Shown here piece after piece: positions 1 to 44,262 of a stretch of 44,262 nucleotides of DNA; position 1 is the first letter of the stretch; each line of letters begins with the position of its first letter. The stretch is taken from positions 1 to 44,262 of the IMG/VR virus record IMGVR_UViG_3300044709_000069; one strand, 5' to 3'. This DNA comes from a virus (lineage: Duplodnaviria; Caudoviricetes). A model generated the notes under the pieces. It did no database searches, was not told the DNA's origin, and saw nothing but the letters and a program-made list of their open reading frames with translations. The translations under genes and the position numbers were made by a program.

Positions 1-470
1 TAAGGCCGCATGGTCATCGATGGCGGCTTCGATTTCGGCAACGAGCTGGGCGGCGAGGTCGTCAGCAGGTTCGGTCATGTCGTTCCTACCGTAATCGGTG
101 GCGGCGTCGGAATCTCGCGGTCGGTCGGTTTCCAAAGGTGCAAAGTGAACGGATGTTGATTGATGTATTCCGATTTCTTCGGATGGAGTTGCATCACCAC
201 ATCTTCCTCATCCCAGCAGATATCTTTCACGAAGGCCATTTCCTTCCATGTCGGTGTCCGCTGCTGGCCGAGTCGCCCTTTGCCGCGATAGGCATGAACA
301 CTGACGTGCTCCCATTGAATGTCGCCATCGGCATCCGAGCAAATCAGCGTCAAGCGCCAGCCCGGCTCTGGCGAGTTGAGATGGAACGTGCCGTTGTTGC
401 CATCGGCACTCGTCGTGCCGAGGATCGGGTGCGTGATGTCGCGTGCGTGCTCGGGAACATGGAAGGCCAT
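1..470 (-). repeat. Inverted, diverged copy of 4309-4778
   Basis: 1-104 is identical to the reverse complement of 4675-4778; 105-470 differs from 4309-4674 at about 37 of 366 positions by hand count, mostly third codon positions. Confidence 0.95.
75..470 (-). CDS. Conserved phage hypothetical protein, variant allele of 4309-4704
   Basis: 131 aa with 6 substitutions versus the 4309 copy; WEHVSV...PTWKEM...QLHP...HLW motif. Confidence 0.85.
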   Translation of the reverse strand: MAFHVPEHARDITHPILGTTSADGNNGTFHLNSPEPGWRLTLICSDADGDIQWEHVSVHAYRGKGRLGQQRTPTWKEMAFVKDICWDEEDVVMQLHPKKSEYINQHPFTLHLWKPTDREIPTPPPITVGTT

Positions 471-475
471 AATAA

Positions 476-497
476 GGGAATTATATACTTGACTCCC
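476..497 (+). repeat. Left inverted repeat of the IS (GGGAATTATATACTTGACTCCC)
   Basis: Exact reverse complement of 2470-2491; recurs at 44171-44192. Confidence 0.97.
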
Positions 498-517
498 TTA
501 CCGATTTGAGCTATTCT
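489..517 (+). promoter_or_regulatory. Sigma70-type promoter at the IS left end, probably giving a leaderless mRNA
   Basis: TTGACT-17 bp-TATTCT, then 6 nt to the ATG at 524. Confidence 0.75.
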
Positions 518-3854: not shown

Positions 3855-4306
3855 GCCCGATGCTGTTCGATCCACATGACCTCCCGTCCGCCGATGATCC
3901 GAGCGAGAGCCTGGAAGAGACGGTCGAAAAACTCATGGCCGCGGTCGACCGCCACGTCATCCGCATGGACCGCATCCGCGAGGTGCTGAGCGATTTTTAC
4001 AAAGCGCAACTCTCGGCGAGCAGCGTGCAAGCGGTCCTCGATCTCGCCGTTGAACTCGATCCGACGCTGATCAAGCACCTGACGCGGCACGATCCGCCCA
4101 GCACCATCGTCCGGCGCCATCTGGTGTGCGATGCGTGTCAGAACGGGTATCACGACGACCGGGGCATCGCCGATCCGTGGGAGCTGCCCGTTTGCGTGCA
4201 TGGCTCCGACCACGGGGCGGTCCATTTGATGCGCGTCGCGTCGCTTGAACTGTTGCCGACGCCACCGGTCGCCGACGTCATCACGCCGGAATCGGCCTCT
4301 TTCTGA
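3851..4306 (+). CDS. Hypothetical protein with Cys/His cluster
   Basis: AGGAGG before ATG 3851; CDAC...H...CVH. Confidence 0.7.
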   Translation: MSPMLFDPHDLPSADDPSESLEETVEKLMAAVDRHVIRMDRIREVLSDFYKAQLSASSVQAVLDLAVELDPTLIKHLTRHDPPSTIVRRHLVCDACQNGYHDDRGIADPWELPVCVHGSDHGAVHLMRVASLELLPTPPVADVITPESASF

Positions 4307-4308
4307 TC

Positions 4309-4704
4309 ATGGCCTTTCATGTGCCTGAGCACACGCGCGACGTCACGCATCCGATTCTCGGCACGACGAGCGCCGATGGCAACAACGGCGCGTTCCATCT
4401 CAATTCGCCTGAGCCGGGCTGGCGCTTGACGCTGATTTGCTCGGATGCCGATGGCGAGATTCGCTGGGAGCATGTCAGTGTCCATGCCTACCGCGGTAAA
4501 GGCCGACTCGGTCAGCAACGGACGCCGACGTGGAAGGAAATGGCCTTCGTGAAAGATATCTGCTGGGACGAGGAAGATGTCGTGATGCAGCTCCATCCAA
4601 AGAAGTCGGAATACATCAATCAGCATCCGTTCACTTTGCATCTTTGGCGTCCAACCGACCGCGAGATTCCCACCCCGCCACCGATTACGGTAGGAACGAC
4701 ATGA
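4309..4704 (+). CDS. Conserved phage hypothetical protein (WEHVS...PTW.EM...HLW family)
   Basis: Mostly synonymous divergence from the 75-470 allele indicates a real gene under purifying selection. Confidence 0.88.
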   Translation: MAFHVPEHTRDVTHPILGTTSADGNNGAFHLNSPEPGWRLTLICSDADGEIRWEHVSVHAYRGKGRLGQQRTPTWKEMAFVKDICWDEEDVVMQLHPKKSEYINQHPFTLHLWRPTDREIPTPPPITVGTT

Positions 4705-4916
4705 CCGAACCTGCTGACGACCTCGCCGCCCAGCTCGTTGCCGAAATCGAAGCCGCCATCGATGACCATGCGGCCTTAGTCAAACATTGCCTCAAAGCGT
4801 TGGAGGTTGCTGGCGTTCCTTTGTCGTGCCAAACCGCAGGCGCGCTGCACGAACTCGCCGACGCCATGCAGGCCATCATCCATCAGCACATCGCCGACGA
4901 AGGGCTCGAGCCGTGA
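4701..4916 (+). CDS. Hypothetical protein (71 aa)
   Basis: ATGA coupling; ends DEGLEP. Confidence 0.65.
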   Translation: MTEPADDLAAQLVAEIEAAIDDHAALVKHCLKALEVAGVPLSCQTAGALHELADAMQAIIHQHIADEGLEP

Positions 4917-27221: not shown

Positions 27222-28451
27222 CTAACTGAAGGCGCGAAACGCGAAGCTCGGAATGATGCTCGCGACACCGCAGAGCAAATCGATGCGCGACGGATTCTGA
27301 TCCGTAGCCAACGAATACTGTTCAACGTATCTCATCGAGATCTTTGCATCGGCGTCGTTGATGCGTTTCGCGTTGGCGCCGGGCAGATTCGCGGCGAGAT
27401 CGACAGCGACCCAGCCGAACGCGCCCGGATTGAAGACGAGCGATTGCTTGCTCGCGGTCGCGGCCATCGTCGCGCTCACCGTGCCGGTCGCGCCGAGGAA
27501 CGTCACCGCCGTGTCGTTGGCCGGTGACGCGGTCACGGTCTGCAACTGGCCGCTGGTGATGATGGGCGGGCTGATCGGCAGCGCGCACGTGCTCGAGCCG
27601 GCAATATCGGCCGTGATGACGAACTGCTGGAGCTCGCCCGTGTCGGTGTAGCCCACCGGGTTGACGCTGTTCACCCCGACCAGCGTGAAGATGTCGCCCT
27701 TTTTGAAGGCGTACGTCCCGAGGCCGTCGATGTTGAGCGTCGAGCCGGTCTGCGAGCCGAGATTGACGAGCGGCGTGGAGCTGGTGAAGGTGCCGGTCGT
27801 GTGCGTCGGCATGAGCGGGTCCCAGTACCACTCATCGACGCCGAGCGCGGCACCACTGAACTGGCCGCTGCGAAACGTCTTGCTGATGAAGTTCTGCGGA
27901 TTGAAGAGCGCGAAGTTCGCGGCCATGAGCTTCGATTGCGACTTCGGATCGAGCACGGCCACGAGTTCTTCCGGCACGCCGAGGTTGCGGAGCTTCGCCA
28001 CGCCGTCGGTGTAGGTCACGTCATCGGTGATGGCCGTGCCTGGCGTGCCCACCGCGTTGTAGACCGTGTAATACACTTCGGCGCCCGCCTGGACGTCGGC
28101 TTTCGACGCCATCGCCCGGCCCGCCGGCATCGTGTAGCGCTCGCGGACTTCCTCGACACGGAGCGCCGAGTCGGCCGAGCTCCAGCCCATGCCCACCTGG
28201 TATTGATGGTTGACGGAGATGGGCACCGTCTGGTTGAGAATCGCCTGCTGCACGAAGGCTTGCCCTTCGGAGACCACGAAGCGCTGCGGAATCCGCACTT
28301 GCGCGGTGTCGCCAATCTTCGCGCCCTGCGGAAGGTTCTCCCAGGCGCGATCCCATTGGCGATCGAAGTTGCCGATCAGTTTGATGTTGTTCTTCCAGCT
28401 CAGAGCGACGTCACGCGTCACCCACCCGACACTGATAAACGTATTGGCCAA
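27222..28451 (-). CDS. Major capsid protein, P22 coat (gp5) family
   Basis: ANTFI...W, AKIGDT..VRIP, insertion domain FKKGDIFTLVGVNSVNP..Y..TG.LQQFV, C-terminal RIDLLCG; TTG start. Confidence 0.93.
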   Translation of the reverse strand: MANTFISVGWVTRDVALSWKNNIKLIGNFDRQWDRAWENLPQGAKIGDTAQVRIPQRFVVSEGQAFVQQAILNQTVPISVNHQYQVGMGWSSADSALRVEEVRERYTMPAGRAMASKADVQAGAEVYYTVYNAVGTPGTAITDDVTYTDGVAKLRNLGVPEELVAVLDPKSQSKLMAANFALFNPQNFISKTFRSGQFSGAALGVDEWYWDPLMPTHTTGTFTSSTPLVNLGSQTGSTLNIDGLGTYAFKKGDIFTLVGVNSVNPVGYTDTGELQQFVITADIAGSSTCALPISPPIITSGQLQTVTASPANDTAVTFLGATGTVSATMAATASKQSLVFNPGAFGWVAVDLAANLPGANAKRINDADAKISMRYVEQYSLATDQNPSRIDLLCGVASIIPSFAFRAFS

Positions 28452-28474: not shown

Positions 28475-29491
28475 TTACACACGGCGACTCCGCATCGGCC
28501 AAAAGCGCTCGTGATCGGCGAGCGTGGCTTTGGCGTCGTCGGGCGGTTCGTCCGGCGCGCGAACAGGGCCCGTCCGCACCGGATTAGGAGGACGAGGCTG
28601 AAGTGTTTGTGGGACCGACGCGGACGATCCGGTCGAAACGTCCTGACGACGGGTGGAATGACCATTAAGCCGTTGCGCGAGCAACGCGAGGGATTCAGCC
28701 TGCTCAAACAACGGTTGGGCGAGCATGGCTTGGAGTTCGTCGGGGTGCTTTTGAAGGTGATACAGAATCTTCGCGCCGGCTTTGTGCTCGAGAATCCAGC
28801 CGTCGATGAGCGAGCCTTGCGGAATCGCCGTGTCGCTCAGTAAGGCGACTTCTTCAAAGTCGGGCAGCTCGGCTTTCGCGGCTTTCACGCGCTCCGACCA
28901 CGACGATTGCAGCCGTTGCTGCTCAGTCTGGATGGACCGCTGGCGCTCGGCTTCAGCGCGTTTCGCTTCAGCCGCTGCCAGCTTCTGATCGACTTTCCAA
29001 TCGGTGAGCGCTTCGTTGTATTCGGTCCAGTCGCTAAACTGTTCGGGCGTGGGCTTCGGTGTCGCAGCAACCGGAGAAGGCGGAGAGGTTGCCAGCGCGG
29101 CAGCCGAACTGGCCGGAGCCGGTCCACTCACGCGCGTTTTTAAGGCATCACGCTCCGCCTCCGCCGCTCGGAGTCGAGCGGTTAACTCCCTGATCCGTGG
29201 AACATCTTCGGGAGTGGCCTGTTGACTCGCCGCCCGGTGCCGCTTCGGCTTAAAGCGCCCGTTCTCGTCACGTTCCGGCGTTTCCGCATCCGGGTCCGCC
29301 GGCGGCTCCGCTGGCTGGTCCGCTGGGTCGCGGCGTTCCTCACGCCGCCCTGAGTCGTCGCCGTCGGCGGGCGGTTGGCTGCCGTATTTGCGCTCGTGTT
29401 CGGCTAAGGACAGCTCAGCGTCAGCGTCCGGGGGGGGTGGCGCGGGGGGGTCAGGTTGATCTGCGGCGAATAAACTTGGTTCGTCGGCCAA
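28475..29491 (-). CDS. Capsid scaffolding protein
   Basis: Immediately upstream of the coat; RDENGRF, coiled coil, F.DW.EY.EAL.DW, PDFEEV, ILYHL.KHP. Confidence 0.85.
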   Translation of the reverse strand: MADEPSLFAADQPDPPAPPPPDADAELSLAEHERKYGSQPPADGDDSGRREERRDPADQPAEPPADPDAETPERDENGRFKPKRHRAASQQATPEDVPRIRELTARLRAAEAERDALKTRVSGPAPASSAAALATSPPSPVAATPKPTPEQFSDWTEYNEALTDWKVDQKLAAAEAKRAEAERQRSIQTEQQRLQSSWSERVKAAKAELPDFEEVALLSDTAIPQGSLIDGWILEHKAGAKILYHLQKHPDELQAMLAQPLFEQAESLALLAQRLNGHSTRRQDVSTGSSASVPQTLQPRPPNPVRTGPVRAPDEPPDDAKATLADHERFWPMRSRRV

Positions 29492-29991: not shown

Positions 29992-30933
29992 TCATTGCGG
30001 TTGTCTTGCAGGTGTCGATTCAGTTTGACTTGCTGCTACCACTGGCAGAAATCCGTACAAGATATTGCCGCTCTCCGTTTTGCGCGGGTCGAATGCGGCC
30101 TTCGTGGAGCGAATCTGCTGCGGGTCGAACACCGCGAGCGTATCGCCTTGAAAGGACATCTCACGCATGCGCACGCCATCGTAGCCTGCATCACGTAAAG
30201 CCTGAATAACGTGCGGCTCGTCCAACGCTTGCTGAACGTGGTTCCAATCTTCAAACGAATAGCCCGTCAGGTTCTCTAATTCGCGTTGCGTATAGGGATT
30301 CAGCGCATCAGGGTTGTACGCCGGGTTATACCCGTCCTTGATCATCCGTTGTCGCACTTCTGGGGTAATCGTGAGGTCGAGCGGATTTTCAATGCGCAGA
30401 TAGAACTTGCGAACTGACGGCGTGCCGCCGGGTTGCCCACGCAATTCTTCGTTCATCCGCACGCGCTGCTTCGCAAAGTAGCGCGATGTCTCAGGGTCCG
30501 TCGAGAAGTAATGCGCTTGCGGAGTGACAGGCGCAAGTCCTTGGTCCGTGTTGCGAATCGTGCCTTGCGGTTCAAACGTGCTGAATCGCTTGTTGCTGCC
30601 GTGATAGACCGTTTCGGCCGTATCGAAGCCGAGGGCATTCGCTCGTTGGAGTCGGCTCGCTTCATCCATTGGCAACGCGCCGCTCCGTGTCTGCTGTAAG
30701 GCTTTCAGCAGGCGCGGAAACCGCTTCGCCACCTCGCCCATCGCGCCACCGAGTGGACCGCCCGGCAACTCAATCGGCATCCCGACCATCATCGCTTGCT
30801 GCGGATCATCCAAACCGAGCCACGAAATCAGCGCCCGAATCGGCGCGCGATACGCCGGGTCGAACACACTCGCATTCTCCGGCTTCGTCCACTCGGGGAA
30901 CAGGCTGGTCCGCGTGATGACCGGGCCGGGCAT
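29992..30933 (-). CDS. ADP-ribosyltransferase-like protein (ART-PolyVal type)
   Basis: VYHGS...F..F, HYFSTDP...YFA, YLRIENPLD, LRDAGYDGV, AVFDPQQIRS..AAFDP. Confidence 0.75.
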   Translation of the reverse strand: MPGPVITRTSLFPEWTKPENASVFDPAYRAPIRALISWLGLDDPQQAMMVGMPIELPGGPLGGAMGEVAKRFPRLLKALQQTRSGALPMDEASRLQRANALGFDTAETVYHGSNKRFSTFEPQGTIRNTDQGLAPVTPQAHYFSTDPETSRYFAKQRVRMNEELRGQPGGTPSVRKFYLRIENPLDLTITPEVRQRMIKDGYNPAYNPDALNPYTQRELENLTGYSFEDWNHVQQALDEPHVIQALRDAGYDGVRMREMSFQGDTLAVFDPQQIRSTKAAFDPRKTESGNILYGFLPVVAASQTESTPARQPQ

Positions 30934-33236
30934 TACTCGCCCTCAGTCACCGGCTCCGGGGCGAGCTCGGCGGCTTGCTGCGCCTGCTCAAGCGCCTGCT
31001 CATGCTCGCGGTCCATCGTTGCCGCGGCATGACTGCGATCGACCTGCCCCTGCACCGCCGCATAGGCGTGCTCGCGCGCTTGCATCTCGGCTTCGTGGCC
31101 GAGCGCCATCGCTTCCTCTTGCGCGTGGGCATCAAGCGCTGCGCCCTTCGCATTCGCCGCAATGTGCGCTTTCGCGATTTCCGTCGCGTTCTTCATCACC
31201 TGCAACGCGAGTTCTTTGTCGGCGTCCATCTCCGCGATTTGGATCTTGGTGGCGTTCTCTTGCTGCTTGCCTTGCAGCTCTTGATGCATCTGCGCCATCA
31301 CCTTCTCGGCATCCTGAAGGCGCTGCGTGAGCTGCATCATCTGCATCTGCATCTGCGGATCGGCCTGACCGTTGCCCTGTTCTTTCGCTGCAATTGCTTG
31401 CTGAATGCGCGGGTCCAGCATCATCTTGGCGCGTTCAGCCATCTCGGCGTGCTGAGGCCAGTCAACCGACTTTAAGAATAAATCTCCGAACCACGTCATC
31501 AGGACCGGATTCTTTCCGATCAGATCACCGAGCATCGCGGCTTCTTCGGCCCGGCGCGTATCGAAGCCTTGGCTAACGCGCACGACGACATTGAAACTCG
31601 CATCGGGCGTCAGCCTGTACTGCTTCTGTGGTCGGGCAGACTGGCCCATCGGCCCAGCAGCCGGCGCGGCCGCACCGTCACTACTCGACGGACCAATCTG
31701 CACCGTTTGCGGCTCGCCTTCCTTGTTCAGGATGCGAGCAATGCGACCAGGCTTCCCGTAAATCGGCGCGAGCAACGAATTAATAACTTGGCCCTCGTAG
31801 CGAATGCTCCGCTTCAAATTGTCGAGAAAGTTCGACGTCCCGTGCGCGCTCTGCTGCTGCAACGCCTGAATGGCGCGACCGCTTTTCAGACTCGGATCAA
31901 CTTTCCCGAGCTGCGGGTCATGCACGCCCGTGGTACTCTGCACGGCGTCGCGAAACATTTGCACGCTGGCCGCGAGCGCGGCGATGTCCGTCCCAACGGG
32001 CGTCCGCGTCGGTGGGCCTAATGGCTTGCCCGCATCGGACACCGCGTTGTAATAGAGCACAGGCGCCGCATAAATGGCCGCATACTGATACCATTTTTCA
32101 AAGTTCTGAATCTGTTCGGGCGTGGCCTGGAATGGCGGAATGGGCGAAAGGCCGATCGTCTCGACCCACTTCGACACCATCGCATTAAAACCGGTCTGCG
32201 AATCACGCGACGGACGGACCATGCCTTCAGCGCGACGTTCCTGATCGAACGGATGCAGTTCTTCGCCCAGCACCTTGATGATCGGCAAATACTTCGACGG
32301 CCAATCGGTGCGCTCAAGCACTTGCTCACCGTCTAACTTGCACCACTTCACTTCTTTCTGAATCTCGTCGTCCCGCTCATCGACAATCCGGGCGTCCGGT
32401 GGAAGTTCATCCTTCCACGCCGATGATCCATCGGCCAGCAACGCGATGGTGCGCGCCTTGCGTTTTACGTACCAGTAGTCCGCGATGCGCACATACCGTT
32501 CGTCGCCCTCTTGCCGGAACCACTCCGGGTCGCCTGTCATATACGACTGGAATTCATCATTCGTCGCCGTCGCGAGTTGATTGGTGGACCCGTCGGCGCG
32601 TTTCTTCCACGTCGCTTTGTACTCGTCCCAACTGATGTAATCGTTCGTGATGAAGCCCCACTCCGCATCCGAACCATCCGGCTCGGTGTGCGCGGGATCG
32701 AGCAGCACGGACGACTGATCGTAAATGCGTTGGATGTAAATCTCTTGCTCGCGGTGGAACGTGCGACCGGGCAGATACCGCGTCATCACGCAGTAATAGC
32801 CAACGCCAGCGATGGCCGCCCGCGATCCGGCCCACGTCCGCGCGTCCTCCGCTTCGCTCTCGCGCTGAATCCGTCGCGTCAAGCCTTCGCGGAGTTCGAT
32901 CTCGTTGTCGTTGAGCGGTTCGGCAATCTGCGCGAAATCATCCGCCGGGACGAGCTCAATGGCATAGTCAGCATTGAGCTCGACGTTGAGCACTTGCCGG
33001 ACGGATTCGCGCACGAGATTGATGACAAGTGACGGCCGAGCCGGCGCGGGAAAAGGCACGTCACTGCCCGCGCTTGGTTGTTGGGCGGCGCGAGCCTTCA
33101 AGGCATCAGGTGCCCACTGAAAGCCGTTATAGAAGGCGATATCTTCTTTTTCGCGCTCGCGCTGTTTCTGCGAGGCCTCCATCGCGAGGTCGAAGCGTTT
33201 TTTCGCGCGCGTGATGAAGTCGCTCTCCCGGGCCAT
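30933..33236 (-). CDS. Portal protein, P22-like
   Basis: DIAFYNG.QW, RPSLVIN, GMVRPSRDSQ..FN, SGRAIQALQQQ, C-terminal Q/M-rich barrel. Confidence 0.93.
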   Translation of the reverse strand: MARESDFITRAKKRFDLAMEASQKQREREKEDIAFYNGFQWAPDALKARAAQQPSAGSDVPFPAPARPSLVINLVRESVRQVLNVELNADYAIELVPADDFAQIAEPLNDNEIELREGLTRRIQRESEAEDARTWAGSRAAIAGVGYYCVMTRYLPGRTFHREQEIYIQRIYDQSSVLLDPAHTEPDGSDAEWGFITNDYISWDEYKATWKKRADGSTNQLATATNDEFQSYMTGDPEWFRQEGDERYVRIADYWYVKRKARTIALLADGSSAWKDELPPDARIVDERDDEIQKEVKWCKLDGEQVLERTDWPSKYLPIIKVLGEELHPFDQERRAEGMVRPSRDSQTGFNAMVSKWVETIGLSPIPPFQATPEQIQNFEKWYQYAAIYAAPVLYYNAVSDAGKPLGPPTRTPVGTDIAALAASVQMFRDAVQSTTGVHDPQLGKVDPSLKSGRAIQALQQQSAHGTSNFLDNLKRSIRYEGQVINSLLAPIYGKPGRIARILNKEGEPQTVQIGPSSSDGAAAPAAGPMGQSARPQKQYRLTPDASFNVVVRVSQGFDTRRAEEAAMLGDLIGKNPVLMTWFGDLFLKSVDWPQHAEMAERAKMMLDPRIQQAIAAKEQGNGQADPQMQMQMMQLTQRLQDAEKVMAQMHQELQGKQQENATKIQIAEMDADKELALQVMKNATEIAKAHIAANAKGAALDAHAQEEAMALGHEAEMQAREHAYAAVQGQVDRSHAAATMDREHEQALEQAQQAAELAPEPVTEGE

Positions 33237-33238
33237 GA

Positions 33239-33571
33239 CTAGAAGCGCTCTTTCGTGACTTTCAACGGCATCATCTGCGTCTGCCCACGATACCGCATCG
33301 GCACGATATGAGGCGTGCCGTCATACTCCGCATCGAAATACGCCGCGAGAGAAATGTTCTTCTTCCAGAGTGCGGCGGTTTCTCGCGTCACCCATTCAGG
33401 CGTGATGAACGTGTTGCCGCCACCCCGGACAAATCGCTCAATGGGCGGGATGACGATCGTTTTCTCGCCGGGCACCCACAGCAGTTTCTCGATGTCGAAC
33501 GTGCAGACCGCCGCCGCCGCACTCACGGTGCCGAAGCCGAGCCGCCGCAGGAACGTCCGTCGATCCAGCAT
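33239..33571 (-). CDS. Twin-arginine-signal protein containing a coat N-terminus-like segment (110 aa)
   Basis: MLDRRTFLRRLGFGTVSAAAAV; NTFITPEWVTRETAALWKKNISLAAYFDAEYD aligns to coat residues 3-34. Confidence 0.8.
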   Translation of the reverse strand: MLDRRTFLRRLGFGTVSAAAAVCTFDIEKLLWVPGEKTIVIPPIERFVRGGGNTFITPEWVTRETAALWKKNISLAAYFDAEYDGTPHIVPMRYRGQTQMMPLKVTKERF

Positions 33572-33834
33572 CACAACCCGACCAACCAGCGAATTCTGGC
33601 CCACCAGCCGCCGTAGACGATGGTCTGCACCAGCCCCAGCGCTGTCTGCACCCGCCTCATGTCATCCGCGTGCAGCGATAACATCGCGGCCGTCTGCTGC
33701 TCGAGCGCGGTCACGCGCGGGACCAGCGTGTTGAGTTGCTGGACGTGGGCGCGCACTTGGTCGCCGATCTCGTGCAGCGCGGATTCAAGGGGCAGCAGCC
33801 GCATATCGGTGTTCGCGTGCGCGTCGTGACCCAT
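33571..33834 (-). CDS. Coiled-coil protein with amphipathic C-terminus
   Basis: TGATG coupling; ends GWWARIRWLVGL. Confidence 0.65.
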   Translation of the reverse strand: MGHDAHANTDMRLLPLESALHEIGDQVRAHVQQLNTLVPRVTALEQQTAAMLSLHADDMRRVQTALGLVQTIVYGGWWARIRWLVGL

Positions 33835-33842
33835 GCTAGTCG

Positions 33843-34241
33843 TCACCCACCCAAACCGACAATCGGTGCAGATGCGGCCAACTGCAACCAGCCTACGGCA
33901 TGATCGATACTTTCGCAGATCGTCACGGCATGGTGATGATGGAAGATATTCGACCGCGCACCGACCACGAGAATCTGTTTGTCGAGCGCCAAGGCATAAC
34001 CGAGTTCGACGTGTCGGCCACCGGACCCACTGCGAGCGAATTCAGGTGGATTCAGCGCCACAAGCACATCAGCCGCCTTGATGTCATCAAGGTCTACTTG
34101 CGCCCACTCATGACTCTCGATCGCGCTGTCATCTTGCACGATCCAGCGCGACGAACACACGATGTGTCGATCGGCCAACAATAACCGAACGGCATTCGCC
34201 TGCTCGCGCAGTTCATACGGCGCTGCGATGTACACGGTCAT
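33843..34241 (-). CDS. Nucleoside 2-deoxyribosyltransferase-like protein
   Basis: VYIAAP, DLDDIKAADVLV, GGRHVELGYALAL.K. Confidence 0.85.
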   Translation of the reverse strand: MTVYIAAPYELREQANAVRLLLADRHIVCSSRWIVQDDSAIESHEWAQVDLDDIKAADVLVALNPPEFARSGSGGRHVELGYALALDKQILVVGARSNIFHHHHAVTICESIDHAVGWLQLAASAPIVGLGG

Positions 34242-34242
34242 G

Positions 34243-34458
34243 CTAGTCGTCGTCACCGACGATCCCCGGTCTGGTGGGGTCGCCAGGCTCCGGCCTATGG
34301 CGAAAACGGAGACCGAACTGGTCCGGCTCCATGCCAGTCGGCACCCGGACAAGTTTCACTTTGTTCGCCAACGCGTCTAAGACGAGATAGCGGGTACCGT
34401 CAGCGCTCGTCAGAACGGCGCCCAGCTCGAGCCGTGAGTCCGCGCTCAGAGGCATCAC
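34243..34458 (-). CDS. Hypothetical protein (71 aa)
   Basis: Fills the operon gap; GAGG upstream. Confidence 0.55.
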   Translation of the reverse strand: MMPLSADSRLELGAVLTSADGTRYLVLDALANKVKLVRVPTGMEPDQFGLRFRHRPEPGDPTRPGIVGDDD

Positions 34459-34567: not shown

Positions 34568-34658
34568 CGTCCCAGCCGCCCCACAGCCGGTCGGCCCACT
34601 GCACGCCAAAAGCCCAAACGCACACCAGAATCACGATGATCAACCCGATCAGTTTCAT
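34560..34658 (-). CDS. Single-TM micropeptide (32 aa)
   Basis: MKLIGLIIVILVCVWAFGVQWADRLWGGWDDD; ATGA overlap with the HNH stop. Confidence 0.5.
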   Translation of the reverse strand: MKLIGLIIVILVCVWAFGVQWADRLWGGWDDD

Positions 34659-35329
34659 GCAGCCCTATTTTCTCGACGTTGACGCATCAGTAAAGCTCCA
34701 CAGGCGCGGCATTGATGCGATGTTCCGATACCGGAGCGACGACTCGGAGCAAATGCAGTCATCGGCTTCACAAGATGACAGTGAGAACAAATGCGTTCGG
34801 TATTCGGATTCCCACCGGCTCGTATAATCCGCGCGCGAACGTGAAGCAGTTTGTGATACGCCTGATCTTGACAGATGACCAGTCGAGCGTTCGGATTCCA
34901 CGGATCTTCATCCGGGTGATGAACGTGAACACCGCGCGGCAATGGGCGCCCGAGCGCACGCTCGGCACGCCGGCGATGGACATGGAATCTCGTCTCTCCA
35001 AATCCTCGTTCAACATACCCGCGGCGCCGATAGGTCGGAGACATCCGTTGGGAATGGCCTTTGAGAAATCGTTGCGGTTGGCCTCTGACATAACCAAATT
35101 TCGGATCAGTCCGATCAGCCAGTAACGTGGGGCGACCACAACCACACTCGCACAGCTTCGATTCGTTCTGTGGCCCAACCGGCGCAGCAGTTCGTGTGGT
35201 ATGTCCTTCAATAAATCGATTCGGCTGCCCTTTGATGATGCCGCGTGCTCGGCGCGTTCGAGTCGCAATCGTTGTTTGACGCCCACAGCCGCATTCGCAG
35301 AGCTTCGGACTAACATGCTCGTCAGCCAT
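34655..35329 (-). CDS. HNH endonuclease with two CECGCG repeats
   Basis: LCECGCG...RF..GH twice; HRRRAERALGRPL....VHH.D...N...L.IC..QAYH..LH; C-terminal CSHC/CRAC. Confidence 0.87.
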   Translation of the reverse strand: MADEHVSPKLCECGCGRQTTIATRTRRARGIIKGQPNRFIEGHTTRTAAPVGPQNESKLCECGCGRPTLLADRTDPKFGYVRGQPQRFLKGHSQRMSPTYRRRGYVERGFGETRFHVHRRRAERALGRPLPRGVHVHHPDEDPWNPNARLVICQDQAYHKLLHVRARIIRAGGNPNTERICSHCHLVKPMTAFAPSRRSGIGTSHQCRACGALLMRQRRENRAA

Positions 35330-36277: not shown

Positions 36278-36490
36278 CTACGATGACTCAGGATCGGCGA
36301 TTGGCGGCTCGAGCACCTTCGGCACGCGATGGCGGACGAGCCGTTCTGTGCGTTTTGTAAGGCGAATCCAACGGTGACAAATTGGGCACGCGCCGCTGAA
36401 GCCATAGGTCGAATGGCTGACTGCGGTCGGGGTTTGCCCGCTACCGGGGCATGGCTCCCACGGCACCCGTAGCCGACTCGACAGGCTCAT
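36278..36490 (-). CDS. Small Zn-finger protein
   Basis: CPGSG...CPICH...H; TGATG coupling to terL. Confidence 0.6.
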   Translation of the reverse strand: MSLSSRLRVPWEPCPGSGQTPTAVSHSTYGFSGACPICHRWIRLTKRTERLVRHRVPKVLEPPIADPESS

Positions 36491-37965
36491 CAGGCCCACG
36501 GGCTGGCAGCTACCGCGCCCCATCTGGCCTGCCGTTTATTCGGCACCCGCACCGGCATCGCAAACGTCAACGCCAACGCATCCGCCCGATCCGGACTCGC
36601 CACGCCACGCCGCAACATCTCCGCCTTACTCTCAATCACCAACTTGTTCCGCTTGTTCAGATGAAAGCCTGGCCCCGCGAGCTCCATCGCCAGCCGATGG
36701 TCCTGGTGGTCAATCGCGCCCTTCGGCAGCCATTCCTTGACCGATTTCCACATTGCGGCCCGCGCGTTCTCGGCCAGCGCATCCGCGCTTGGCCCGCCAA
36801 AGTTCACTTCATGGACGTTATGGAACCCCATTTGCTTCAAGCGCACGGCGATCGGCGCCCCGAAGGCCACATCGATGAACATCGCCGTCACTGGATGTTC
36901 GTTCAGCGCATTCGCCAGCACATCGACCACGAGCTGCCGTTCATTCGCCACCGTCTGCTCGCCGGTCAACGTGATCGGGCGCAGACTGCGCGCATCAAAG
37001 CCTTTGCGGAACATGCAAACGGTCCACGCTGCGCCGCCGCCGCTGACGTCCACGCCCGCGATTAGCGGTTCATCAACGACGGCATACGGCATATTCGTTT
37101 GCGCTTGCGCAATCCGTGCGGCATCGACATACTGCAATTCATCGGCTGACGGCGGCAACCCGCGCACGCGCACTTTGAAGAAGTCCGACTCGAGCCCATA
37201 GTCCTCTTCCCACTGGGCGATGAGGGTTTTGTTACTGAACTTCGATGTGCGCGAATCAATCACCCGCACGATGTAGCGATCGCGCGCGCTCCCGAACGCC
37301 GCACGATAGAACGCGCCCGTATTCCGCGTGGGATTCGCCAGAAGGAATTGCATCGGCTCGCCGTCCGTCAACCCGCCCTCTTGCACTTCGTGAATCTTGT
37401 CGGGTACCGCCGAATCTTCGTCGTTGACGTAGAACGAGGTCGAGTTCTTCGCGTGTTGGCCGGCAAACGCTTCGCTGTTTTCTTCGGCGCACGATTGCGG
37501 CGCGCAGAACCACTCCGCGCGGTAGCCCTTGCGAAACATGATCGCGCTGTTGATGTCGAACCAATGGGCATTGATGAGACGAGCCGTCCACTCGCGAATC
37601 GCTGACCACGTTTTGAGCTGAATCTGGTCGTTCGTGTTCGCGGTAATCGTGCCTTTACAGAACGGCCGTGTGGACATGATCCAATCGACAATCCAGGCGA
37701 CGAGCGTCGAGCCGCCGACGCCGTGCCCTTTCGAGATGGCCATGCGCAGCGGCAACACCGGGTCGACGCCATTAAAGCGACGGGCAATGACCTGTCGTCT
37801 GATTTCTTCGAGGAGTTCACGTTGCCAGAGGTCGGGGCCTGGTTCGCCGTTGATCGGCCACGGATAAAACGCTTCGACAAACGCGAGCGGATTATTCAGG
37901 CACGCTGCCGCGAAGGTGTGCAGTTGCGCTTCGTCGTGGTCAGTGGTCTCGACGTTCGACAGCAT
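36490..37965 (-). CDS. terL: Terminase large subunit
   Basis: PDLWQ, GHGVG P-loop, TANT..Q, EAFAGQH, DE Walker B, NPTRNTG, IAGVDV, IDVAFG, SPDRADALALTFA. Confidence 0.95.
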   Translation of the reverse strand: MLSNVETTDHDEAQLHTFAAACLNNPLAFVEAFYPWPINGEPGPDLWQRELLEEIRRQVIARRFNGVDPVLPLRMAISKGHGVGGSTLVAWIVDWIMSTRPFCKGTITANTNDQIQLKTWSAIREWTARLINAHWFDINSAIMFRKGYRAEWFCAPQSCAEENSEAFAGQHAKNSTSFYVNDEDSAVPDKIHEVQEGGLTDGEPMQFLLANPTRNTGAFYRAAFGSARDRYIVRVIDSRTSKFSNKTLIAQWEEDYGLESDFFKVRVRGLPPSADELQYVDAARIAQAQTNMPYAVVDEPLIAGVDVSGGGAAWTVCMFRKGFDARSLRPITLTGEQTVANERQLVVDVLANALNEHPVTAMFIDVAFGAPIAVRLKQMGFHNVHEVNFGGPSADALAENARAAMWKSVKEWLPKGAIDHQDHRLAMELAGPGFHLNKRNKLVIESKAEMLRRGVASPDRADALALTFAMPVRVPNKRQARWGAVAASPWA

Positions 37966-43545: not shown

Positions 43546-44170
43546 TCACCACCGCAACCCGCGCTGCGCCGTGCGTTCCTTCGCTAAGTCGTGATACACC
43601 AAGTCGCAACCCACCCAACGGCGACCGAGCCGTTCCGCCACCGCGCCCACCGTACCGCTGCCGAGGAATGGATCGAGCACCAAGCCGCCGACCGGACAGC
43701 CAGCAAGGATGCACGGCTCAATCAAGGCTTCTGGCATCGTCGCGAAGTGGGCGCCTTCGTACGGCTCCGTCGCAATCGTCCAGACCGTTCGCTTGTTCCG
43801 CCCTACCGTAGTTTTCTCGCCGTTCTGCCAAGGCGCGCCCGAATCCAGTCGCGCGCTGATGTTCATGTCACCGAAATCGAGCCGTCCCGCGCCAACTTCC
43901 ATGATCGCCGCCGCGTCGTAGTAGTACCGCTCCTGCTTCGCCAGCAGAAACACATACTCATGGCTTTTCGTCGGGCGATCCGTGACACTCTCCGGCATCG
44001 GATTCGGTTTGTGCCAGATGATGTCGCTGCGCAGATACCAACCATCGGCTTGCAGCGCGAAGGCGACACGCCACGGAATGCCGAGCAAGTCTTTTTGCTT
44101 GTATCCATCCGTTAACGGTCGATACGCCGTCTCAAACATGCGGGCCACTCGAGCCGCACCGCCATCTTTG
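43546..44170 (-). pseudogene. N4C/N6A DNA methyltransferase, 3' part, interrupted by the IS
   Basis: KDLLGIPWRVAFALQADGWYLRSDIIWHKPNPMPES, HFATMP, VLDPFLGSGT; joins the 5' part in frame (GTNGKD-GGAAR) to give 295 aa. Confidence 0.93.
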
Positions 44171-44262
44171 GGGAATTATATACTTGACTCCCTTACCGAT
44201 TTGAGCTATTCTTAGGTCATGGAAACAACAGCTCGCGAGCAACTGGTAGCCGGAATCGCCGC
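44171..44262 (+). repeat. Second copy of the IS left end (circularisation overlap)
   Basis: 92 bp identical to 476-567. Confidence 0.97.

What the first reader, a model, noticed from the sequence alone, without database searches (positions are those of the whole stretch)
33239..33571. Twin-arginine signal peptide fused to a diverged copy of the phage's own coat N-terminus
Seen: the 110-aa gene 2 bp upstream of the portal starts DRRTFL plus a hydrophobic stretch. It contains NTFITPEWVTRETAALWKKNISLAAYFDAEYD, which aligns without gaps to the coat N-terminus NTFISVGWVTRDVALSWKNNIKLIGNFDRQWD (17 of 32 identical, many other positions conservative). Known: RRxFL is the Tat-targeting consensus, and the coat N-arm of P22/HK97-fold capsids takes part in assembly contacts. 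Inference: a membrane- or Tat-targeted coat mimic could tether or nucleate procapsid assembly at the membrane, act as a decoy for capsid-sensing defences, poison assembly of superinfecting relatives, or jam the Tat translocase. I know of no described system of this kind.
Basis: partly seen in the sequence, partly recalled or inferred. Interest (0 to 1): 0.82.

Follow-up and report, generated by a model that had tools for sequence, protein, structure and literature searches.

The report
Export-tagged copy of phage's capsid arm
This small optional phage gene joins a twin-arginine (Tat-type) export leader to a preserved copy of the first helix of the phage's own shell protein, and it belongs to a large family with swappable shell-protein pieces that likely serve as bait to pull shell-recognising proteins to the cell membrane, a function that is still untested.

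Summary
Observation confirmed. The 110-aa gene (33239-33571, minus strand) has an RRxFL leader, and residues 53-84 match coat residues 3-34 (17 of 32 identical). It belongs to a large family (353 clusters at 50% identity) with a conserved leader and a variable tail. 200 of 281 tails match one of two tested capsid families (shuffles 3 of 1,405): N-arm, I-domain, C-terminal strands, or an HK97-like mini-coat lacking the A- and I-domains. Tails follow the capsid family of their own genome and are under purifying selection (dN/dS 0.20). The gene is optional (2 of 20 relatives) and is not tied to the portal: in a second phage group it sits among replication genes. Best reading (0.40): a Tat-coupled capsid-mimic bait against host capsid sensing. 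Against it, known Avs sensors bind the A-domain that the tails avoid. Export, binding partner and host are untested. I found no paper on it; this scan noted the same design in other genomes.

The parts
33239..33571 (-). Gene for the 110-aa leader plus coat-fragment protein (P0001)
   Evidence: no Pfam family; only phrog_38722 at E=0.035
33548..33562 (-). Twin-arginine motif RRTFL (residues 4-8)
   Evidence: sequence; TIGR01409 hit at 15.4 bits, below its 16.7 cut-off; R4, R5 invariant in alignments A1 and A8
33497..33541 (-). Uncharged h-region, residues 11-25 (15 aa), ending in an Ala run
   Evidence: sequence; family median uncharged run 15
33446..33496 (-). Family linker D-x-E-K-L-L-W-x-P-G-E-K-T-I (residues 26-42)
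   Evidence: absent from 6 other RR-leader plus coat-fragment genes
33320..33415 (-). Copy of the coat N-arm helix (residues 53-84 = coat 3-34), keeping the acidic residue at coat position 14
28350..28445 (-). Source segment in the cognate coat gene (codons 3-34)
   Evidence: identity to the copy at codon positions 1/2/3 is 0.72/0.66/0.38
27222..28451 (-). P22-like major capsid protein, 409 aa
   Evidence: PF11651 E=3.5e-18; phrog_283 E=1.9e-48
30933..33236 (-). P22-like portal, 2 bp downstream of the gene (context)
   Evidence: PF16510 E=1.5e-111
28475..29491 (-). Scaffolding protein (context; candidate partner of an N-arm copy)
   Evidence: phrog_8865 E=1.9e-23
33571..33846 (-). Upstream 91-aa ORF whose stop overlaps the start codon (translational coupling is inferred)
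36490..37965 (-). Terminase large subunit (context; same strand, upstream)
   Evidence: phrog_2 E=6.8e-23

Best explanation
The gene encodes an optional phage protein that joins a twin-arginine leader to a maintained copy of the phage's own capsid N-arm, and it likely works as a bait: the copied piece would bind a protein that recognises the capsid protein, most likely a host anti-phage sensor, and the leader would carry the complex to the Tat translocon, where it would be held or exported. SHOWN: the fusion; the modular family; the origin of tails in the cognate capsid family; purifying selection in relatives; the accessory status; the variable genome position. INFERRED: that the leader engages TatC; that the tail binds anything; that the partner is a host sensor; that it is removed by hitch-hiker export (Tat co-export of a partner without a signal is established, Rodrigue 1999, title seen in the reference list of PMC13673990) or held at the membrane.
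For: (1) Any of several non-overlapping coat parts can fill the tail. Of 163 tails that match coat family A, up to 121 cover coat 1-60, about 17 cover 70-125, about 30 the I-domain and about 24 the C-terminal strands. One phage assembly partner would not bind all of these; a series of different sensors could. (2) Leaders 84-92% identical carry different coat regions, so tails are swapped or re-captured. (3) Tails track the genome's own capsid family. With family-A coats, 20 of 31 genomes have A-type tails, none B-type, 11 unmatched; with family-B coats, 16 of 16 have B-type tails, one also marginally A. After collapsing at 70% coat identity this is 16 of 25 A groups and 4 of 4 B groups, and the own coat ranks in the upper half in 15 of 16 A groups (p=0.0005). 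(4) Tail dN/dS 0.20 and leader 0.10 over 10 disjoint orthologue pairs; third codon positions of tail against own coat are near saturation. (5) Accessory: 2 of 20 distinct relatives found through the coat carry the leader near the head genes, one only as a 39-aa stub. (6) 28 of 37 B-type genes lie within 3 kb of replication genes, on the strand opposite the coat in the six complete-coat genomes where one search lists both. (7) Some genomes hold two or more different coat pieces. (8) Six unrelated RR leaders without the linker are also fused to coat pieces, so RR plus h-region is the recurring element. (9) Capsid proteins are known immune triggers: CapRel, Thoeris, Avs7/8/10 (passages of PMC13728456 and 10.64898/2026.01.04.697583).
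Against: [quoted passage not shown] The tails avoid this domain (at most 2 tails at any position of coat 131-240), so they cannot be baits for those sensors. A 32-residue helix is unlikely to present a folded surface. Binding a sensor normally activates it. No host is known, so neither a Tat system nor a sensor could be checked. In this window the gene is coupled into the packaging operon, so it would be made with the coat, not before it. Only 189 of 280 leaders pass a TatFind-like rule (recalled from memory), and P0001 scores below the TIGR01409 cut-off. 81 of 281 tails match neither coat family. The selection estimate does not include this gene itself.
Confidence: 0.4

Rival explanations
1. 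Assembly titrator or poison: the copied piece would bind scaffold or coat subunits and the leader would drag them to the membrane or out of the cytoplasm, tuning the phage's own head assembly or spoiling heads of co-infecting relatives.
For: In P22 the N-arm residues D14/E15/E18 bind the scaffold C-terminus (PMC9965877 passages). The acidic residue at coat position 14 is kept in 96% of 119 N-arm tails against 86% of coats; equating this column with P22 D14 is by position only. The long forms (coat 2-125 joined to 347-397) fold as an HK97-like domain without the capsomer-forming A-domain (pLDDT 79.5; top 34 VIA rows are HK97-fold shells, best Z 7.9), the shape of a chain terminator. Another phage's coat often scores above the own coat (own ranks first in 9 of 20 A and 2 of 16 B).
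Against: I-domain and C-terminal pieces would not bind scaffold. Own-coat ranks are better than chance, which implies self-harm. B-type genes lie away from the head genes.
Confidence: 0.25
2. Membrane nucleation of the procapsid: an uncleaved leader would anchor the N-arm copy at the inner membrane and seed portal-scaffold-coat assembly.
For: The gene ends 2 bp before the portal here and 4-7 bp before the portal frame in L005 and L006. The leader weakly resembles uncleaved Rieske anchors.
Against: Absent from 18 of 20 relatives in the head-gene region. The tail piece is not fixed. Tat topology would put the tail outside the cytoplasm. Replication-module position in group B.
Confidence: 0.08
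3. Envelope role: the protein would be exported and act in the periplasm or outside, for example as a decoy for an envelope-level sensor or in superinfection exclusion.
For: The motif fits Z-R-R-X-phi-phi and small unfolded substrates can pass Tat (PMC13673990 section 6 and passages). An A-x-A occurs in the last 12 leader residues in 207 of 280 (the region is Ala-rich, so this is weak).
Against: I know of no periplasmic capsid-binding factor (own knowledge). Capsids of incoming phages stay outside the cell.
Confidence: 0.12
4. Tat jammer or membrane peptide: the leader would be the active part and the coat piece only a cargo that stalls the translocon.
For: The leader is more constrained than the tail (dN/dS 0.10 against 0.20). 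81 of 281 tails match neither coat family. A leader-only stub exists. Poorly folded Tat cargo causes growth defects (passage).
Against: It does not explain why 200 of 281 tails come from capsid proteins, in frame, from the cognate family, with the A-domain left out.
Confidence: 0.1
5. Decaying relic of a capsid duplication with no present function.
For: Patchy presence, a stub allele, and many partial forms of the long mini-coat.
Against: dN/dS 0.20, saturated silent sites against the coat with 44% amino-acid identity kept over 1,402 codons, intact frames in hundreds of clusters, and recurrence with at least four capsid families.
Confidence: 0.05

Closest known systems
Twin-arginine (Tat) signal peptides, TIGR01409 / PF10518, including uncleaved Rieske-type anchors
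   Same: Z-R-R-X-phi-phi motif at the start of an uncharged Ala/Gly-rich stretch; 30 of 36 members of A1 hit TIGR01409 at E<=0.1.
   Different: Phage-encoded; very short n-region; a fixed D-x-E-x-L-L-W-x-P-G linker follows; RR-to-D spacing clusters at 13-14, 17-18 and 21-23; the cargo is a capsid piece.
P22-type coat protein (PF11651, phrog_283), N-arm/F-loop
   Same: 32-residue block, 53% identical to the cognate coat; long relatives cover N-arm, E-loop and P-domain and model as HK97-like.
   Different: A fragment behind a leader; the A-domain is almost never included, so it should not form capsomers (inferred).
Capsid paralogues that act on heads: T4 gp24 vertex protein, SaPIbov5 Ccm size-redirecting protein
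   Same: A second HK97-fold gene that tracks a major capsid protein; both entries appear among the fold matches of the long form.
   Different: Those are near-complete folds built into shells (recalled); no export leader, no swapping of pieces.
Phage anti-defence mimics and decoys (T7 Ocr DNA mimic, Acb2/Tad sponges, ICP1 Gp145 antitoxin mimic)
   Same: Small optional phage proteins that neutralise defence by imitation or sequestration (passages).
   Different: None in the passages read copies the phage's own structural trigger or carries a Tat-type leader.

Membership tests
Tat substrate | Z-R-R-X-phi-phi motif near the N-terminus | tested here: met
   D-R-R-T-F-L at residues 3-8; definition from PMC13673990 section 6; 280 of 283 family leaders
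Tat substrate | Hydrophobic h-region after the motif | tested here: met
   15 uncharged residues in P0001; 189 of 280 leaders pass a recalled TatFind-like rule, 81 have runs under 13
Tat substrate | Score above the curated TIGR01409 cut-off | tested here: not met
   15.4 bits against 16.7; no Pfam hit
Tat substrate | Signal peptidase cleavage site or lipobox | tested here: inconclusive
   Ala run at 18-21 and a Cys at 23 that is not among the conserved columns; SignalP/TatP not available
Tat substrate | TatABC-dependent translocation, lost on RR-to-KK | not testable with these tools
   needs a bench test; host unknown
P22-type coat protein (PF11651) | Sequence homology to the coat | tested here: met
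   residues 53-84 only
P22-type coat protein (PF11651) | Complete HK97 fold with N-arm, E-loop, P- and A-domains | tested here: not met
   110 aa with only coat 3-34; even the long relatives omit coat 126-346 (P22 domain limits)
Capsid paralogue built into the shell (gp24, Ccm) | Present in the virion or procapsid | not testable with these tools
   no isolate; 0 matches in 50,697 GenBank phage records
Phage anti-defence protein | Restores phage growth against a defined defence system | not testable with these tools
   bench test
Decoy for Avs7/8/10-type capsid sensors | Carries the A-domain surface these sensors bind | tested here: not met
   coverage of coat 131-240 at most 2 of 163 tails; sensor interface

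The most novel reading that the evidence does not exclude
Phages have a modular counter-immunity device: a Tat address label to which they attach pieces of their own virion proteins, so that host sensors that bind these pieces are caught before they fire and are shipped out of the cytoplasm by the host's own Tat machine. The captured pieces would then map which capsid surfaces unknown bacterial sensors read (N-arm, I-domain, P-domain strands), none of them the A-domain read by known Avs sensors.
Probability: 0.25. Interest if true: 0.95.

Novelty: categorically new. Interest (0 to 1): 0.78.

Why it matters
A conserved export-type leader carrying interchangeable, selected copies of a virus's own capsid parts is an architecture I found in no paper. 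If it is a bait, it is a new class of anti-defence (self-mimic plus host export), and the tails point to unknown capsid sensors that can be fished out with the tails themselves. If it acts on assembly, it gives natural minimal inhibitors of HK97 head assembly and a natural P-domain-only mini-coat. Either way the proteins are short and can be tested in laboratory E. coli with a Tat reporter and pull-downs.

Tried and rejected
No match in 50,697 GenBank phage records. The scan of GTDB genomes gave one hit, L070, a linker-like stretch in an unrelated ORF, rejected. A profile search of 401 genomes of L070's phylum gave 2 hits, a true coat gene and a coat-like stretch at a contig end, neither with a leader; the host stays unknown. 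Cluster look-up of 10 proteins gave no names. No RNA holder listed. Contigs of 3 of 4 other DNA runs carry parts of the gene without differences, but none bridges the leader-tail junction and they gave no variants. A scan with the portal found no close relatives, so there is no dN/dS for this gene itself. The model of coat B was poor (pLDDT 41.7) and profile comparison of coats A and B was blank; B is called a capsid from phrog_14242 E=1.5e-5 in 1 of 3 members scanned, SU10_MCP in 15% of a near Atlas cluster and gene order. The Atlas model of P0001 was uninformative (pTM 0.13). Complex prediction (coat with tail) was not available; Foldseek searches could not be run. Tail matches to an adaptor-like gene (L105, 55 against null 53) and to the gene after a coat (L133, 54 against 48) are marginal. 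The 'A' and '-' labels undercount A because duplicates were filed under protein ids, so only its B counts are used. Literature: 8 searches found no description; subscription papers and bioRxiv supplements were not searchable.

Full report
Observation. It lies on the minus strand between a terminase large subunit (36490-37965) and a P22-like portal, scaffold and coat. Its start overlaps the stop of the upstream ORF by one base and its stop is 2 bp before the portal. Residues 53-84 align without gaps to coat residues 3-34 (17 identities, E=2e-9). The score of 94 exceeds all 300 shuffles (maximum 44) and every other ORF of the genome. A database protein is 92% identical over the whole length, so the fusion is real.

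A modular family. The first search returned 35 relatives that share about 42 N-terminal residues (RRxFL, an Ala-rich stretch, then D-x-E-K-L-L-W-x-P-G) but differ behind it. In 21 of the 35 the tail matched this window's coat better than all 300 shuffles, at different places. The exhaustive search found 353 clusters at E<=0.001, of which I saw 150. Of 281 distinct tails from proteins and loci, 163 match a profile of P22-like coats (family A), 37 match a second capsid family (B), none match both and 81 match neither; shuffled tails gave 2 and 1 of 1,405. A PHROGs scan of 131 tails gave few hits, mostly to major head families: phrog_283, phrog_212 (E=3e-9) and, weakly, phrog_9953.

Which parts are copied. 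In family A up to 121 tails cover coat 1-60, about 17 the spine helix region, about 30 the I-domain and about 24 the C-terminal strands; coat 131-240 is covered by at most 2. The N-arm share is inflated because the query has an N-arm tail, but B tails, found through the leader alone, also favour the first 60 residues (31 of 37). Twenty-three tails join two or three pieces. The longest join about coat 2-125 to 347-397. By the P22 domain limits (PMC9965877, passages) this is N-arm, F-loop, E-loop and P-domain without A- and I-domains. One such protein (P0110, 21-row alignment) models at pLDDT 79.5, and the top 34 of its fold matches are HK97-fold shells, though the best Z is only 7.9 with rmsd 5-8. 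Leaders 84-92% identical carry different coat regions.

Co-variation with the cognate coat. In 47 virus records with both a leader gene and a coat, A-coat genomes had A-type tails in 20 of 31 (11 unmatched, none B) and B-coat genomes had B-type tails in 16 of 16. The records were not all searched with both coats: 50 with B, 34 with phrog_283, and other A coats came from flanks or fetched records. Collapsed at 70% coat identity, the counts are 16 of 25 and 4 of 4 groups, so B rests on few lineages; the own coat ranks in the upper half in 15 of 16 A groups. It is not always first (9 of 20 in A, 2 of 16 in B).

Selection. Over 32 tail-coat pairs (1,402 codons; pairs scoring 55 or more) identity at codon positions is 0.53, 0.65 and 0.37, and 97 of 267 four-fold sites are identical; for this gene 0.72, 0.66, 0.38. 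The copies are old and kept at protein level, with the caveat that these alignments were chosen on protein likeness. Ten disjoint orthologue pairs, aligned globally, give dN/dS 0.20 for tails and 0.10 for leaders. None includes this gene.

The leader. It fits the Z-R-R-X-phi-phi definition (PMC13673990 section 6). RR is present in 280 of 283; the other three are truncated or mis-anchored. This is partly circular, as members were found through the leader. Independent support: six genes found through their coat piece have unrelated RR leaders without the linker. Against: P0001 is below the TIGR01409 cut-off, and only 189 of 280 pass a recalled TatFind-like rule. Export is untested.

Context. Of 80 loci found through the coat alone, 33 held terminase and portal; these fall into 20 distinct groups, of which 2 carry the leader, one as a 39-aa stub (flanks were limited to 10 kb). 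The gene is therefore optional. In B phages 28 of 37 genes lie within 3 kb of DNA polymerase, primase, Sak4, exonuclease or helicase, 2 near terminase, 7 near none. Some records hold two or more different pieces. The host is unknown.

Mechanism. An optional, swappable, selected copy of the phage's own capsid parts, placed either late or early, fits a bait for proteins that recognise the capsid. Capsids trigger CapRel, Thoeris and Avs systems (passages). Tat can co-export a bound partner (title in a reference list), which would remove a sensor rather than fire it. I put this at 0.40. The strongest point against it is that Avs7, 8 and 10 bind the A-domain (10.64898/2026.01.04.697583 section 11), which the tails avoid; the target would have to be another sensor, or the omission avoids triggering and self-assembly. 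The main rival (0.25) is titration or poisoning of head assembly: the P22 N-arm binds scaffold through acidic residues, and the acidic column is kept in 96% of 119 N-arm tails. Periplasmic action (0.12), Tat jamming (0.10), membrane nucleation (0.08) and relic (0.05) follow.

Novelty. No Pfam or PHROG family covers the protein. Eight literature searches found no description; I read only passages or single sections of six papers (PMC13673990, PMC13728456, PMC9965877, PMC12409349, 10.64898/2026.01.04.697583, 10.64898/2026.10.24.761521). Earlier notes of this scan report the same design in other genomes, including T4-like phages and terminase or portal pieces. I read them after forming my view; they are unchecked and not counted as support. 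The architecture is new and well supported; the function is open.

Noticed in passing
window 29992-30933 (-): ART-PolyVal domain gene (PF18760, E=5e-14) inserted between portal and scaffold, a possible conflict effector in the head operon.
   Followed up: no
window about 3-506 (+) and 4153-4779 (-); 44135-44260 and 353-1882: Near-identical translated stretches on opposite strands near the left end (score 665), and a match between the right end and the left region: an inverted duplication or invertible segment, or an assembly feature.
   Followed up: no
L173:13969-14292, L152:11100-11426, L054:3-344: About 108-aa genes in group-B phages that carry the coat's C-terminal motif and, by eye, a second coat piece, with no RR leader: a second kind of coat mimic.
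   Followed up: partly
family-wide: The RR-to-D spacing clusters at 13-14, 17-18 and 21-23 residues, steps of about one helical turn; it may be a kept register or shared ancestry.
   Followed up: no
L274:1709-1891, L276:3483-3665: 39-aa stub with the leader but no coat piece in close relatives.
   Followed up: no
L105:9779-9979; L133:10106-10294: Tails whose best in-locus match is a head-tail adaptor-like gene (phrog_12985/637) or a 152-aa gene after the coat; both only just above the shuffle maximum.
   Followed up: partly
L078:13980-15314 (-) and L216-L231: A 420-aa capsid family (B) barely covered by PHROGs and Pfam, in 16 records with Sak4, DNA polymerase and primase modules.
   Followed up: partly
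window 33571-33846 (-); L001:6582-6881; L002:8393-8650: By eye, a similar 85-99-aa gene ending in an R-x-R-W-L motif flanks the leader gene in these phages (upstream here, downstream there).
   Followed up: no
window 33843-34352 and 34655-35329 (-): Nucleoside 2-deoxyribosyltransferase-like and HNH-like genes among the small inserts between terminase and portal.
   Followed up: no
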